From NCBI RefSeq assembly GCF_000026545.1, contig NC_011601.1: a DNA stretch of 64,000 bases. The stretch is one strand, 5' to 3'. The DNA comes from Escherichia coli O127:H6 str. E2348/69 (GTDB lineage: Bacteria > Pseudomonadota > Gammaproteobacteria > Enterobacterales > Enterobacteriaceae). The translations under genes and the position numbers were made by a program. Positions 3,118 to 6,308 of this stretch are shown here, in pieces. The first letter of the stretch is position 1. Each line of letters opens with the position of its first letter. The notes beneath the pieces were generated by a model. That model worked only from the letters and a program-made list of their open reading frames with translations, was not told the origin of the DNA and made no database searches.

Positions 3118-3196
3118 TGCCCACTGCTCCGGCGTGCCTGCGCCGGAGCGTTTATGCTAAACTGCGCGCCTGTTTTTTTGCCAGTGGTATATGCTC

Positions 3197-4636
3197 GTGG
3201 CCCAACACACCGTTTATTTCCCGGACGCCTTTCTGACACAAATGCGCGAAGCGATGCCTTCGACGCTCTCTTTTGATGATTTTCTTGCCGCCTGTCAGCG
3301 CCCGTTGCGCCGCAGCATTCGCGTTAATACGCTGAAAACCTCCGTTGCTGATTTCCTGCAATTAACTGCTCCTTATGGCTGGACGCTTACGCCAATTCCG
3401 TGGTGTGAAGAAGGTTTCTGGATTGAACGCGACAGTGAAGATGCATTGCCGTTGGGTAGTACCGCCGAGCATTTAAGCGGCCTGTTTTATATTCAGGAAG
3501 CCAGTTCAATGTTGCCTGTTGCCGCCTTGTTTGCTGACGGTAATGCACCACAGCGGGTGATGGATGTCGCTGCTGCACCAGGTTCCAAAACGACGCAAAT
3601 TGCTGCGCGGATGAATAACGAAGGGGCAATCCTTGCCAATGAGTTTTCCGCCAGTCGGGTAAAAGTGTTACATGCCAATATCAGCCGCTGTGGCATCAGT
3701 AATGTTGCGCTCACGCATTTTGATGGCCGCGTGTTTGGTGCGGCAGTGCCAGAAATGTTCGATGCCATTTTGCTGGACGCTCCCTGCTCCGGCGAAGGCG
3801 TGGTGCGTAAAGATCCCGATGCGCTAAAAAACTGGTCACCAGAAAGCAATCAGGAAATCGCAGCGACCCAACGGGAGCTGATCGACAGCGCCTTTCATGC
3901 ATTACGTCCTGGCGGTACGCTGGTTTACTCGACCTGTACCTTAAACCGGGAAGAAAACGAAGCCGTTTGCCTGTGGCTGAAAGAGACTTATCCCGACGCA
4001 GTAGAGTTTTTACCGCTTGGCGATCTCTTCCCTGGTGCAAACAAGGCGCTGACCGAGGAAGGCTTTTTGCATGTTTTCCCACAAATTTACGACTGCGAAG
4101 GCTTCTTCGTTGCTCGTCTGCGTAAAACTCAGGCGATCCCCGTCTTACCCGCCCCAAAATACAAAGTGGGCAATTTCCCGTTCAGCCCGGTGAAAGATCG
4201 CGAAGCCGGACAAATTCGTCAGGCGGCTGCAAGTGTTGGCTTAAACTGGGATGAAAACCTGCGACTCTGGCAGCGTGACAAAGAACTGTGGTTGTTCCCG
4301 GTAGGCATTGAAGCCCTGATCGGTAAAGTCCGATTTTCTCGCCTGGGGATTAAACTTGCCGAAACGCACAACAAAGGTTATCGCTGGCAGCATGAAGCCG
4401 TTATTGCCCTTGCCTCCCCCGACAATGTGAACGCTTTTGAACTGACACCGCAGGAAGCGGAAGAGTGGTATCGCGGGCGCGATGTTTACCCGCAAGCCGC
4501 GCCAGTGGCGGATGATGTATTGGTTACTTTCCAGCATCAGCCGATTGGTTTAGCCAAACGGATTGGTTCACGACTGAAAAACAGCTACCCGCGTGAACTG
4601 GTGCGCGACGGGAAACTTTTTACCGGTAACGCCTGA
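3197..4636 (+). CDS. rsmF: 16S rRNA m5C1407 methyltransferase RsmF (YebU)
   Basis: ORF 3191..4636; SAM-methyltransferase motifs ([22 protein letters not shown]); start assumed at GTG 3197 for a 479-aa product, ATG 3191 is the alternative. Confidence 0.9.
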
Positions 4637-4753
4637 CAGCGCACAAAAAAAGCGCACTTTTTGACTGGCACATTCGACTGCCTCAACTAGGCTGAAAAAT
4701 GGTGCGATCGGACTGGTCGTACCACAACCGGCAGCTAAATGGAGAGCACGAAG

Positions 4754-4990
4754 ATGAAAACCAGTGTGCGCATAGGCGCTTTTGAAATCGACGATGGCGA
4801 ATTACACGGCGAATCGCCGGGTGATCGAACGTTAACCATTCCTTGTAAATCAGACCCCGATTTATGTATGCAACTGGATGCCTGGGATGCTGAAACCAGT
4901 ATCCCTGCCCTGCTAAATGGCGAACACTCTGTCCTTTACCGTACCCGTTACGATCAACAATCTGATGCCTGGATTATGCGTCTTGCCTGA
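4754..4990 (+). CDS. yebV: Small protein YebV (78 aa), function unknown
   Basis: ORF 4739..4990; start placed at the second ATG (MKTSVRIGAFEIDD...). Confidence 0.8.
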   Translation: MKTSVRIGAFEIDDGELHGESPGDRTLTIPCKSDPDLCMQLDAWDAETSIPALLNGEHSVLYRTRYDQQSDAWIMRLA

Positions 4991-5094
4991 TCCAAAAAGA
5001 ACCCGTCGGCATGGCGGGTTATTTGTCCGGGTTATTCCCCCGTTGTAAAATCTCTCCTAAACTTAACGGTACGGCACCACACTTCGGGGATGAA

Positions 5095-5286
5095 ATGTTC
5101 GCGCTGGTACTTTTTGTTTGCTACCTGGATGGCGGTTGTGAAGATATTGTTGTGGATGTCTACAACACGGAACAGCAGTGTCTTTATTCTATGAGCGATC
5201 AACGGATCCGCCATGGCGGTTGTTTTCCGATTGAGGATTTTATAGATGGTTTCTGGCGACCTGCACAGGAGTACGGTGATTTTTAA
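5095..5286 (+). CDS. yebW: Small protein YebW (63 aa), function unknown
   Basis: ORF 5011..5286; start at the internal ATG giving MFALVLFVCYLDGG...; ends 1 bp before the convergent pphA stop. Confidence 0.7.
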   Translation: MFALVLFVCYLDGGCEDIVVDVYNTEQQCLYSMSDQRIRHGGCFPIEDFIDGFWRPAQEYGDF

Positions 5287-5943
5287 TTATTGCAATTGCA
5301 CAAGAGTCAGTTCTCCCCCAAAGACAGCACCGGTATCAATATAATGCAGGTTGCCAATATCCACGCGATGGCGCAAAGGTGTATGACCAAACCAGAAATG
5401 ATCAGCACCTGCAATTCCCTGCCCTTTTTGGCGTTCACCTAATCGCGAGCGGCTCCACAAGACCTGATGCAAATCGACGTCCTTTTGCCATTCATAGACA
5501 TCATCTGGATAATCGGCATGAGCAATAACATGTTTGCCGGTGCGACTGTGTAATTCAAGAATAAAGGGCAAATGCTGACATTTTTCCAGCGCCGTTTTCG
5601 CTTGTTTCTGTTGATTATCTGCCAGCGCAATAAACCAGTCGCCGCCATTTATCAACCATAAAGACATCTGCCGGGATGCCAGCGCATCCATCGCCATCTG
5701 TTCATGATTGCCTCTTACCGCACGAACCCAATGTTGTTCCAGTAACTGCAGGCAACGTAAACTTTGCGGCCCACGATCGATAACGTCTCCCACTGAGATA
5801 AGTAAATCTCGCCACGGATCAAAACGACAATGCCATAATTTGCGGCGCAATTGCTCAAGACAACCGTGTATATCGCCTGAAAGCCAGATATGTCGCCATT
5901 GATGACCCGCAATTCTCTGATAAATGGGCGCAGGCTGTTTCAT
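5287..5943 (-). CDS. pphA: Serine/threonine protein phosphatase 1 (PrpA/PphA)
   Basis: 219-aa ORF with calcineurin-like phosphoesterase motifs (GDIHGC, GDVIDRG, GNHE). Confidence 0.9.
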   Translation of the reverse strand: MKQPAPIYQRIAGHQWRHIWLSGDIHGCLEQLRRKLWHCRFDPWRDLLISVGDVIDRGPQSLRCLQLLEQHWVRAVRGNHEQMAMDALASRQMSLWLINGGDWFIALADNQQKQAKTALEKCQHLPFILELHSRTGKHVIAHADYPDDVYEWQKDVDLHQVLWSRSRLGERQKGQGIAGADHFWFGHTPLRHRVDIGNLHYIDTGAVFGGELTLVQLQ

Positions 5944-6039: not shown

Positions 6040-6308
6040 AAAGTCAGCGAAGGGAATGCTTCTGGCTTTTAACAGATAAAAAGAGACCGAACACGATTCC
6101 TGTATTCGGTCCAGGGAAATGGCTCTTGGGAGAGAGCCGTGCGCTAAAAGTTGGCATTAATGCAGGCTTAGTTGCCTTGCTCTTTAAGAATAGATGACGA
6201 CGCCAGGTTTTCCAGTTTGCGTGCAAAATGGTCAATAAAAAGCGTGGGGGTCATCAGCTTAAATGTTAAAAACCGCCCGTTCTGGTGAAAGAACTGAGGC
6301 GGTTTTTT
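6040..6308 (+). ncRNA. ryeA: RyeA (SraC) sRNA, antisense partner of SdsR; ends are approximate
   Basis: Known to be encoded opposite sdsR and fully overlapping it; 3' end placed at the plus-strand terminator at 6266..6309; 5' end not determinable from sequence alone. Confidence 0.35.
6078..6180 (-). ncRNA. sdsR: SdsR (RyeB) sRNA, RpoS-dependent
   Basis: Minus-strand sequence 6180->6078 reads GCAAGGCAACUAAGCCUGCAUUAAUGCC...GGUCUCUUUUU, matching the SdsR sequence as I recall it, including the 3' hairpin and U-tail. Confidence 0.8.

What the first reader, a model, noticed from the sequence alone, without database searches (positions are those of the whole stretch)
4640..5290. yebV-yebW: two small proteins of unknown function converging on pphA
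Seen: two short ORFs (78 and 63 aa) on the plus strand. The second is Cys-rich (CYLDGGCEDIVVD...CLYSM...GGCFPIEDFIDGF) and ends 1 bp before the stop of the convergent phosphatase gene pphA. Inference: YebW might bind a metal or form disulfides; convergent overlap with pphA again implies antisense interaction at the 3' ends. Neither protein has a known function, so this is a low-cost target for characterisation.
Basis: inference. Interest (0 to 1): 0.25.

Follow-up and report, generated by a model that had tools for sequence, protein, structure and literature searches.

The report
Two conserved small stress-protein genes
These are the annotated E. coli genes yebV and yebW, two real and strongly conserved small proteins of the stationary-phase stress response; yebW is a chromosomal relative of the prophage lysis protein YdfD, which gives a testable lead to its function but is not a new kind of system.

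Summary
yebV (4754-4990, 78 aa) and yebW (5095-5286, 63 aa) lie on the + strand. The yebW stop codon directly abuts the stop codon of convergent pphA (5287-5943, minus strand): the gap is 0 nt and the coding sequences do not overlap.

Both are genuine genes. All 81 sequences compared (80 genome loci plus the window) keep yebW at exactly 63 codons, and no other frame stays open. dN/dS is about 0.04-0.07 for both genes.

They are already annotated. YebV is DUF1480, and an orthologue has a crystal structure (8VVA). YebW is DUF1482, named the "YdfD/YebW family" in RefSeq.

This analysis adds the following:
- YebW is homologous to phage YdfD (hhalign 99.3%), a Qin-prophage lysis protein reported to bind IspG.
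- Both are predicted to fold as beta-beta-alpha-beta.
- The cysteines behave as two pairs, which argues against a four-cysteine metal site.
- yebW carries its own conserved sigmaS-type -10 element (CTAnAnT), found in 79 of 84 loci.
- yebW persists where yebV or pphA is absent.

Best guess: YebW is a non-lytic, sigmaS-driven, protein-binding paralogue of YdfD. Published RNA-seq supports transcript overlap with pphA, but no regulatory effect has been shown. Interest is low to moderate.

The parts
4687..4693 (+). Candidate sigmaS-type -10 element (CTAGGCT) of the yebV promoter, inside a conserved block aCTAcGCTGAAAaaTGG
   Evidence: The block is conserved in the alignment of 81 upstream regions. 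yebV is reported as RpoS-dependent in Salmonella and in E. coli O157 (PMC5437024; PMC2907692). The promoter assignment is an inference.
4714..4724 (.). Inverted repeat TGGTCGTACCA (TGGT-N3-ACCA) in the yebV leader. It has the shape of a GntR/FadR-type operator.
   Evidence: TGGTC[G/A]TACCA is present in 80/80 loci and sits in the near-invariant block ACTGGTCGTACCACA. The resemblance to FadR or PdhR boxes is recalled from memory and was not tested.
4754..4990 (+). yebV coding sequence, 78 aa, DUF1480
   Evidence: PF07351 E=1.3e-42. PDB 8VVA orthologue E=4e-43. dN/dS about 0.06.
4993..5026 (.). Intrinsic terminator after yebV: A-tract, hairpin AACCCGTC/GGCGGGTT, then ATTTGT. It looks bidirectional because of the A-tract on the + strand.
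   Evidence: Fold energy on the + strand is -17.5 kcal/mol, z=-2.3. The hairpin is conserved with compensatory GTC/GAC to GCC/GGC changes across genera. The minus-strand version is weaker in this strain (z=-0.1).
5023..5051 (+). Sigma70-like promoter match TTGTCC-17-TAAAAT. It is seen only in the two Escherichia sequences displayed (the window and E. albertii).
   Evidence: Consensus scan, 9 of 12 matches. It is absent from the displayed sequences of other genera.
5057..5066 (+). Conserved sigmaS-type extended -10 element of yebW (CTAAACTTAA; family consensus CTACACT)
   Evidence: CTAnAnT lies 28-57 nt upstream of the ATG in 79/84 loci, against 3.0 expected from shuffles. It travels with yebW in Lonsdalea, Erwinia, Chania and in Citrobacter with an insertion. 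A sigmaS ChIP-seq peak is assigned to yebW (PMC4447067).
5086..5090 (+). Shine-Dalgarno sequence GGGGA for yebW
   Evidence: GAGGA/GGGGA is conserved 4-7 nt before the ATG.
5095..5286 (+). yebW coding sequence, 63 aa, DUF1482 (YdfD/YebW family)
   Evidence: PF07358 E=1e-35. phrog_1092 E=4.5e-13. 63 codons in 81/81 sequences. dN/dS about 0.04-0.06. hhalign against YdfD-type proteins gives 99.3%.
5287..5943 (-). pphA (prpA), a NinI/lambda-type Ser/Thr phosphatase. It is the convergent neighbour, and its stop codon abuts the yebW stop codon.
   Evidence: NF008516 at 439.7 bits against a cut-off of 326. phrog_246 E=1e-87. The junction geometry is seen in 66 loci.

Best explanation
The segment holds two separate, sigmaS-type transcription units that encode two real small cytoplasmic proteins of the enterobacterial core genome.

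Shown:
- yebV is followed by its own conserved terminator. yebW has its own conserved CTAnAnT -10 element and Shine-Dalgarno sequence, and it keeps them when yebV or pphA is missing or when other genes are inserted between yebV and yebW.
- YebV is a DUF1480 protein. The K. pneumoniae orthologue is a monomeric split beta-barrel.
- YebW is a DUF1482 protein homologous to the phage and prophage protein YdfD. Both have the same predicted beta-hairpin, helix, strand core and a floppy C-terminal tail.

Inferred:
- YebW acts as a small protein-binding modulator. It would use the conserved N-terminal hairpin/helix core, which is the part of YdfD reported to bind IspG. The lysis-critical YdfD C-terminus is replaced in YebW by a different conserved tail (FIDGFWxPAxEYSDF), so YebW would be non-lytic.
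- My specific guess, at about 25% likelihood, is that in stationary phase YebW damps the IspG/MEP isoprenoid step or a related envelope-precursor step. This would explain why extra copies give about 2-fold higher MICs for gentamicin, ceftriaxone and levofloxacin.
- The cysteines form two independent pairs, C9-C15 across the hairpin turn and C29-C43 between helix and strand. They are more likely structural or redox pairs than one metal site.
- The 0-nt tail-to-tail junction with pphA forces the two sigmaS-driven transcripts (yebW, and sdsR-pphA read-through) to overlap. This may mutually attenuate them, but it is a by-product of the geometry and not the reason yebW exists.
For: Gene reality.

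Independent transcription units:
- Conserved terminator hairpin with compensatory changes.
- -10 motif in 79/84 loci against 3 expected.
- The motif is retained in Lonsdalea (no yebV), Chania (a different locus), Erwinia (no pphA) and Citrobacter, where an MFS transporter and a LysR regulator are inserted between yebV and yebW.
- SigmaS ChIP peak assigned to yebW (PMC4447067).
- yebV is RpoS-dependent and detected by mass spectrometry (PMC5437024; PMC2907692).
- pphA is made by read-through from the sigmaS sdsR promoter (PMC6610125).

Homology to YdfD:
- tblastn hits to phage ydfD genes.
- BLASTP 40% identity, E=8e-13.
- hhalign 99.3%, E=1e-20.
- Identical predicted topology for YebW (E2-9, E15-23, H26-35, E41-45; pLDDT 80) and YdfD (E4-12, E18-26, H29-39, E44-48).

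YdfD biology: the YdfD N-terminal 28 residues bind IspG, and an intact C-terminus is needed for lysis (PMC8835842).

Non-lytic behaviour and antibiotic effect: yebW was recovered on a multicopy plasmid and raises MICs about 2-fold, while the knock-out has no phenotype (PMC5857375 with corrigendum PMC9676061).

Cysteine pairing: 92 cluster representatives have all four cysteines, and 6 (all YdfD-type) lack exactly C9 and C15.

Not exported: no Lys or Arg precedes the N-terminal strand in 76/77 members.

Transcript overlap.
Against: - No experiment links YebW to IspG or to any partner. The YdfD-IspG link itself comes from one laboratory.
- YebW and YdfD share only about 40% identity, and their tails differ, so the target may differ too.
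- The MIC shifts are small (2-fold) and the knock-out shows no phenotype.
- Stable disulfides are not expected in the cytoplasm, so two conserved cysteine pairs would fit an oxidising compartment better.
- AF2 confidence is moderate (pLDDT about 80, tail below 60).
- SigmaS dependence of yebW rests on one ChIP-seq peak plus a sequence motif. My conversion of the peak coordinates to the current K-12 numbering uses an offset recalled from memory, checked only against the sdsR peak.
Confidence: 0.55

Rival explanations
1. YebW is an exported or membrane-anchored small protein. The hydrophobic N-terminus (MFALVLFVCYL) would act as a signal sequence or anchor, and the four cysteines would form two periplasmic disulfides.
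For: Two cysteine pairs behave as units, as expected for disulfides. Some database sources label homologues 'secreted protein'. From memory, unverified: an earlier YdfD study described the YdfD N-terminus as membrane-associated.
Against: The hydrophobic run is only about 10-11 residues before an invariant acidic/glycine turn. There is no Lys or Arg n-region in 76/77 family members. There is no lipobox by my reading of the sequence. C9 lies inside the supposed signal segment. AF2 places residues 2-9 as the first strand of the folded core, with pLDDT about 89. YdfD was purified and reported to bind the cytoplasmic enzyme IspG (PMC8835842).
Confidence: 0.15
2. The four YebW cysteines bind one metal ion or a cluster (Zn or Fe-S).
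For: Four cysteines are conserved in YebW orthologues. The CX5C sits at a hairpin turn and resembles a zinc knuckle. The reported YdfD partner IspG is an Fe-S enzyme (PMC8835842).
Confidence: 0.15
3. The main role of yebW is in cis. Its sigmaS promoter fires into pphA, forming an excludon or causing transcriptional interference, and so tunes the phosphatase. The protein would be secondary.
For: The gap is 0 nt and there is no terminator between the genes. yebW-pphA is listed in the E. coli excludome (PMC12288877). pphA read-through RNA declines along the ORF for unexplained reasons (PMC6610125). The 0-nt junction is kept in 50 of 66 pphA-bearing loci although the stop-codon identities change.
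Against: The protein sequence is under strong purifying selection (dN/dS about 0.05). yebW is retained, with its promoter, in 14 Enterobacteriaceae that lack pphA and in Erwinia, Lonsdalea and Chania. Gaps of 1-28 nt arose in 4-5 clades. A plasmid-borne yebW acts in trans on MICs (PMC9676061).
Confidence: 0.1
4. YebV and YebW work as an obligate pair, either toxin-antitoxin-like or as a complex.
For: They are adjacent in all 80 Enterobacteriaceae loci and in Erwinia. Both are sigmaS-linked. YdfD is toxic.
Against: A conserved terminator and a separate promoter lie between them. A 2.3-kb insertion separates them in some Citrobacter. yebW occurs without yebV in Lonsdalea and Chania. Single deletions of either gene are viable according to cited work (PMC5857375, PMC9676061, PMC11809132).
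Confidence: 0.08

Closest known systems
YdfD of the Qin cryptic prophage and its lambdoid-phage homologues (DUF1482, phrog_1092)
   Same: Same Pfam family. Both are 63 aa. They share the N-terminal FALVL strand and the invariant Cys pair (C29/C43 in YebW numbering). The predicted beta-beta-alpha-beta core is the same. Identity is 40%, and hhalign gives 99.3%.
   Different: YdfD sits in the phage early-left operon immediately after dicF and dicB, and it is lytic when expressed (PMC8835842). YebW sits at a fixed core-chromosome locus after rsmF-yebV. It has its own sigmaS-type promoter, no 3-4 residue N-terminal extension, an extra conserved Cys pair and a different conserved C-terminal tail. 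It is tolerated in multicopy (PMC9676061).
KPN_02352 (PDB 8VVA), the DUF1480 protein of Klebsiella pneumoniae
   Same: It is the orthologue of YebV: E=4e-43 over residues 2-78, with the same Cys pair (PMC11809132).
   Different: Nothing of note. The function is still unknown. The published PilZ-like resemblance lacks the c-di-GMP motif (PMC11809132).
Convergent 'excludons', and the neighbouring sdsR/ryeA transcriptional-interference pair
   Same: Convergent units with no terminator between them and overlapping transcripts. The pair is listed in the E. coli excludome. pphA is already known to be controlled by interference at its 5' end (PMC6610125).
   Different: Reciprocal expression or RNase III processing has not been shown for yebW-pphA. 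Both promoters are sigmaS-type, so the two genes are more likely co-induced than mutually exclusive.

Membership tests
DUF1482 / YdfD-YebW family | Pfam PF07358 match above the gathering score | tested here: met
   121.9 bits against a cut-off of 25, covering profile positions 1-57 of 57.
DUF1482 / YdfD-YebW family | Demonstrable homology to characterised YdfD | tested here: met
   BLASTP E=8e-13 at 40% identity. hhalign 99.3%, E=1e-20. phrog_1092 E=4.5e-13.
DUF1482 / YdfD-YebW family | Family-invariant residues (L4, C29, C43) and the beta-beta-alpha-beta core | tested here: met
   Alignment A2. AF2 models of YebW and YdfD have matching elements.
YdfD-type phage lysis protein (function) | Location in a prophage early-left operon downstream of dicB | tested here: not met
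   yebW lies between yebV and pphA at a conserved chromosomal locus in 80 species. The phage copies follow dicB.
YdfD-type phage lysis protein (function) | Cell lysis on expression, with an intact YdfD-type C-terminus required | not testable with these tools
   The YdfD tail (...HQDNIEIPAGL) is not conserved in YebW. Multicopy yebW was selected in a screen, not lethal (PMC9676061). This suggests YebW is non-lytic.
YdfD-type phage lysis protein (function) | Binding to IspG | not testable with these tools
   Reported only for YdfD (PMC8835842). No complex prediction tool was available.
DUF1480 / YebV family | Pfam PF07351 match and orthology to the solved structure 8VVA | tested here: met
   144.1 bits against a cut-off of 25. 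8VVA E=4.2e-43.
Convergent excludon | Convergent genes with no terminator in a short or absent spacer | tested here: met
   0-nt spacer. No terminator-like site between the genes.
Convergent excludon | Overlapping transcripts with mutually exclusive expression or RNase III processing | not tested
   Overlap is reported from RNA-seq (PMC12288877). Reciprocity has not been examined. Both promoters are sigmaS-type.
Sec signal peptide / lipoprotein | Positively charged n-region, an h-region of adequate length, and a cleavage site or lipobox | tested here: not met
   No Lys or Arg precedes the hydrophobic strand in 76/77 members. The hydrophobic run is about 10-11 residues. The residues before C9 (LFV) and C15 (DGG) do not fit a lipobox, by my reading of the sequence.
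Type II toxin-antitoxin pair (yebV-yebW) | Co-transcribed adjacent genes that always occur together | tested here: not met
   A terminator and a separate promoter lie between them. yebW occurs without yebV. Insertions separate them in some species.

The most novel reading that the evidence does not exclude
YebW is a domesticated, non-lytic version of a phage lysis protein. It would bind the same host target as YdfD (reported to be IspG) through the shared N-terminal core. In that role it would either throttle isoprenoid and envelope-precursor synthesis in stationary phase, producing low-level multidrug tolerance, or act as a resident decoy that blunts YdfD-type killing by lambdoid phages.
Probability: 0.2. 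Interest if true: 0.55.

Novelty: already known. Interest (0 to 1): 0.25.

Why it matters
As a genome feature this is ordinary: two annotated core genes. Three things make it mildly useful.

1. The YdfD paralogy gives YebW a concrete hypothesis that can be tested in a week: does it bind IspG or compete with YdfD? Searches of the held paper library found no paper mentioning DUF1482, and the main YdfD paper does not mention YebW.

2. Together with the sigmaS promoter and the reported MIC effect, that would link a stationary-phase small protein to antibiotic tolerance.

3. The literature mixes the two genes up. The Plas-Seq antibiotic phenotype was first published for yebV and later corrected to yebW, so a clear separation of the two is helpful.

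Tried and rejected
- A profile search of PDB sequences gave only chance matches to RNase A (E at least 0.02).
- NCBIfam and PADLOC have no model matching YebV or YebW. PHROGs has none for YebV.
- Literature searches for 'DUF1482' gave 0 papers, b1836/b1837 gave only noise, and 'yebV'+'FadR' gave nothing relevant.
- The longer 91-aa yebW ORF starting at ATG 5011 was rejected. The Pfam profile starts at Met29 of that form. The extension lies over the yebV terminator, and all 80 species start at the conserved ATG preceded by a Shine-Dalgarno sequence.
- Antisense and alternative-frame ORFs across yebW were rejected as not conserved.
- The 51-codon in-frame open stretch after the yebW stop codon (5287-5442) was rejected as a conserved extension. 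Its length varies from 1 to 180 codons among species.
- I rejected the idea that yebW and pphA are the remnant of a single prophage. Both families are phage-related. However, in lambdoid phages ydfD lies in the early-left operon and, from memory, ninI lies in the rightward nin region, so the two would be transcribed divergently, not tail to tail. yebW also predates pphA at this locus. Base composition is only slightly lower in GC (45-48% against 51-54%).
- Selection for the exact 0-nt abutment is not supported. Gaps of 1, 2, 3, 5 and 27-28 nt exist in separate clades.
Full report
**What is there.** The window matches E. coli E2348/69 at 100% identity. The local gene order is letB, rsmF (3191-4636), yebV (4754-4990), yebW (5095-5286) on the + strand, then pphA (5287-5943) on the minus strand, followed by the sdsR/ryeA sRNA pair (6074-6218). 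The yebW TAA ends at 5286, and the reverse-complemented stop codon of pphA occupies 5287-5289. The two genes therefore abut with 0 nt between them and do not overlap.

**Are they real genes?** Yes.
- YebV matches Pfam DUF1480 (E=1e-42) and YebW matches DUF1482 (E=1e-35).
- The segment is present in 5424 of 5426 complete E. coli genomes. yebW-pphA is contiguous in 5415.
- A scan of one genome per species returned 80 loci from Enterobacteriaceae. In all 80 plus the window, yebW starts at ATG and is exactly 63 codons long.
- Only that frame is open in 81/81 sequences. The other five frames are open in 0-32 of 81.
- Pairwise dN/dS against the window is 0.035-0.07 for yebW and 0.03-0.11 for yebV. 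Synonymous sites are near saturation, and third-position variability is 5-8 times that of positions 1 and 2.
- YebV was detected by mass spectrometry in Salmonella (PMC5437024).
- A ribosome-profiling study reports RPOR values for yebW rather than placing it among the ORFs with too few reads (PMC5373646). This is indirect evidence of translation.

**Transcription units.** Right after yebV lies a conserved hairpin, AACCCGTC-loop-GACGGGTT-ATTT.
- It shows compensatory changes among genera and has an upstream A-tract, so it looks like a bidirectional intrinsic terminator. In this strain the + strand fold is -17.5 kcal/mol (z=-2.3), and the minus-strand version is weaker.
- Downstream comes a near-invariant TCCCCTACACTTA, a GAGGA Shine-Dalgarno sequence and the ATG.
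- The motif CTAnAnT occurs 28-57 nt before the yebW ATG in 79 of 84 loci, against 3.0 expected in shuffles. Four of the five exceptions have TTACACT.
- From general knowledge, cited from memory, a C at -13 followed by TATACT is the hallmark of sigmaS-selective promoters.
- A sigmaS ChIP-seq study lists a peak for yebW at 1920033-1920203 in old K-12 coordinates (PMC4447067). With an offset of about 1977 bp, this maps to window positions of about 4984-5154, centred on the motif. The offset is my recollection of the difference between genome versions. I checked it only against the neighbouring sdsR peak in the same table.
- The motif stays with yebW in every context examined: Citrobacter species where an MFS transporter and a LysR regulator are inserted between yebV and yebW; Erwinia, which lacks pphA; Lonsdalea, which lacks yebV; and Chania, where yebW is at an unrelated locus (sequences).
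- yebV has its own conserved upstream block with a CTAcGCT element. It is reported as RpoS-dependent (PMC5437024; PMC2907692).
- pphA is mainly made by read-through from the sigmaS-dependent sdsR promoter (PMC6610125).

The whole neighbourhood is therefore a small sigmaS island made of separate units.

**What YebV is.** It is the orthologue of K. pneumoniae KPN_02352, whose 1.75 Å structure (8VVA) matches at E=4e-43. That protein is a monomeric six-stranded split beta-barrel capped by a helix, with a conserved Cys pair. It resembles PilZ but lacks the c-di-GMP motif, and its function is still unknown (PMC11809132).

**What YebW is.** RefSeq already calls it a 'YdfD/YebW family protein' in some genomes.
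- It hits phrog_1092, and tblastn finds relatives in temperate Escherichia and Klebsiella phages.
- In those phages the gene follows dicF and dicB in the early-left operon, as ydfD does in Qin.
- YebW and YdfD are 40% identical (E=8e-13). Profiles of the two clades align at 99.3% probability.
- The family is tiny: 64 clusters at E up to 0.001 among 1.8 billion representatives.
- AF2 predicts the same topology for both proteins. YebW has strands 2-9 and 15-23, helix 26-35 and strand 41-45. YdfD has strands 4-12 and 18-26, helix 29-39 and strand 44-48. Both have a low-confidence C-terminal tail and pLDDT of about 80.
- No solved or viral structure matches convincingly.

**The hydrophobic N-terminus.** It is predicted to be the first core strand. 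It is only about 10-11 residues long, and it lacks a basic n-region in 76 of 77 members. I therefore read it as part of a soluble fold and not as a signal peptide or membrane helix.

**The cysteines.** L4, C29 and C43 are invariant across the whole family. C9 and C15 are present together in 92 cluster representatives. They are absent together in 6 representatives, all of the YdfD type. The few single losses occur in sequences that look frameshifted. This pattern indicates two independent pairs. It argues against a single four-cysteine metal site, although it cannot separate structural from redox roles. I could not measure distances in the model.

**Function.**
- YdfD lyses cells when expressed. 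It was reported to bind IspG through its N-terminal 28 residues, and even one- or two-residue C-terminal deletions abolish killing (PMC8835842).
- The N-terminal half is the part best conserved between YdfD and YebW. By eye I count 12 identities among 24 aligned residues in the alignment.
- The tails are clade-specific. YebW has a conserved FIDGFWxPAxEYSDF with invariant F53 and W54.
- The Plas-Seq screen recovered this locus on a multicopy plasmid as raising the gentamicin MIC, with cross-effects on ceftriaxone and levofloxacin of about 2-fold. The knock-out had no phenotype. A corrigendum reassigns all of this from yebV to yebW (PMC5857375, PMC9676061).
- Extra YebW is therefore tolerated and has a mild physiological effect.
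- My committed reading is that YebW is a non-lytic, sigmaS-driven paralogue of YdfD that acts by binding a host protein. IspG or isoprenoid supply is the most concrete candidate, at about 25% likelihood. Reduced quinone or undecaprenyl supply and slower growth would plausibly give the small multidrug MIC rise. That last step is inference only.

**The junction with pphA.**
- Of the 80 loci, 66 carry pphA, counting one truncated locus with a recognisable 3' end. Of these, 50 have the 0-nt stop-to-stop junction. This holds although the stop codons themselves vary (TAA, TAG or TGA on either side) and PphA is only 50-70% identical to the E. coli protein in other genera.
- The other 16 have gaps: 1-2 nt in Buttiauxella, 3 nt in the Cedecea/Dryocola group, 5 nt in Klebsiella and Raoultella, and 27-28 nt in Salmonella.
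- Fourteen species lack pphA but keep yebW.
- I conclude that the abutment is ancestral in Enterobacteriaceae. It is maintained mostly because both C-termini are constrained, and it is not under strict selection itself.
- Transcript overlap is unavoidable. There is no terminator between the genes, and the next hairpin on the minus strand is the yebV terminator. The pphA 3' UTR would then cover all of yebW in antisense.
- The overlap is reported in at least 50% of 58 MG1655 transcriptomes (PMC12288877).
- A regulatory consequence is plausible. The pphA read-through RNA fades along the ORF for unknown reasons (PMC6610125). It remains untested.

**Verdict.** They are partly off: the coding sequences do not overlap, a single metal site is unlikely, and existing knowledge was overlooked. 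The most useful outcome is the explicit, testable YdfD-based hypothesis for YebW. Novelty is 'already known', and interest is low to moderate.

Noticed in passing
window 4712-4726: A near-invariant ACTGGTCGTACCACA lies in the yebV leader, and TGGTC[G/A]TACCA is present in 80/80 species. It is a TGGT-N3-ACCA inverted repeat with the shape of a GntR/FadR-family operator. It lies about 12-26 nt downstream of the inferred transcription start. No regulator is known to me for this site.
   Followed up: partly
window 6074-6218: The cis-antisense sRNA pair RyeA/SraC (+, 176 bits) and SdsR/RyeB (minus strand, 6078-6177, 114 bits) lies just upstream of pphA. According to PMC6610125, pphA is transcribed by read-through from the sdsR promoter.
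   Followed up: partly
window 5287-5442 (+ strand, antisense to the pphA 3' end): The frame of yebW stays open for 51 more codons after its TAA. A ribosome-profiling paper flagged yebW for unusually high post-ORF ribosome density (RPOR 1.6, rising to 4.1 without RF3) and attributed it to misannotation or an unidentified ORF. The open stretch is not conserved (1-180 codons across species), so the footprints remain unexplained.
   Followed up: partly
L039 1704-3929 (also L055; a shorter insertion in L034): In some Citrobacter species, an MFS transporter gene and a LysR-type regulator gene are inserted between the yebV terminator and the yebW promoter. The yebW promoter motif remains intact.
   Followed up: partly
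L083 1435-4249 (Lonsdalea): yebW follows rsmF directly, with no yebV. A phage CI-type repressor gene converges on it at the position where pphA sits in E. coli.
   Followed up: no
L015 4190-4225 (Citrobacter amalonaticus S646): The sequence after the yebW stop codon (TGCCTGTAGCTGCGCCAGCCTCAGC) looks like a decayed pphA 3' end. This suggests pphA was lost secondarily in some lineages.
   Followed up: no
L086 33-221 (OR845647.1, 'Escherichia phage ECO95 1-6-1'): An unverified 1.9-kb record in the phage collection encodes a YebW that is 90.5% identical to the window copy. It is most likely host-DNA contamination from another enterobacterium and not a phage gene.
   Followed up: no
window 5023-5051: A sigma70-like match, TTGTCC-17-TAAAAT, overlaps the tail of the yebV terminator. 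It is seen only in the two Escherichia sequences displayed (the window and E. albertii). It could add sigmaS-independent yebW transcription in this genus.
   Followed up: no
literature on window 4754-5286: The antibiotic-MIC phenotype first published for yebV was reassigned to yebW by a 2022 corrigendum. The 2024 DUF1480 structure paper says the family contributes to the antibiotic response; from the text I read, it cites Keio knock-out and polymyxin-secretome data for this, and I did not check whether it also cites the corrected screen. The two genes are easily confused.
   Followed up: partly
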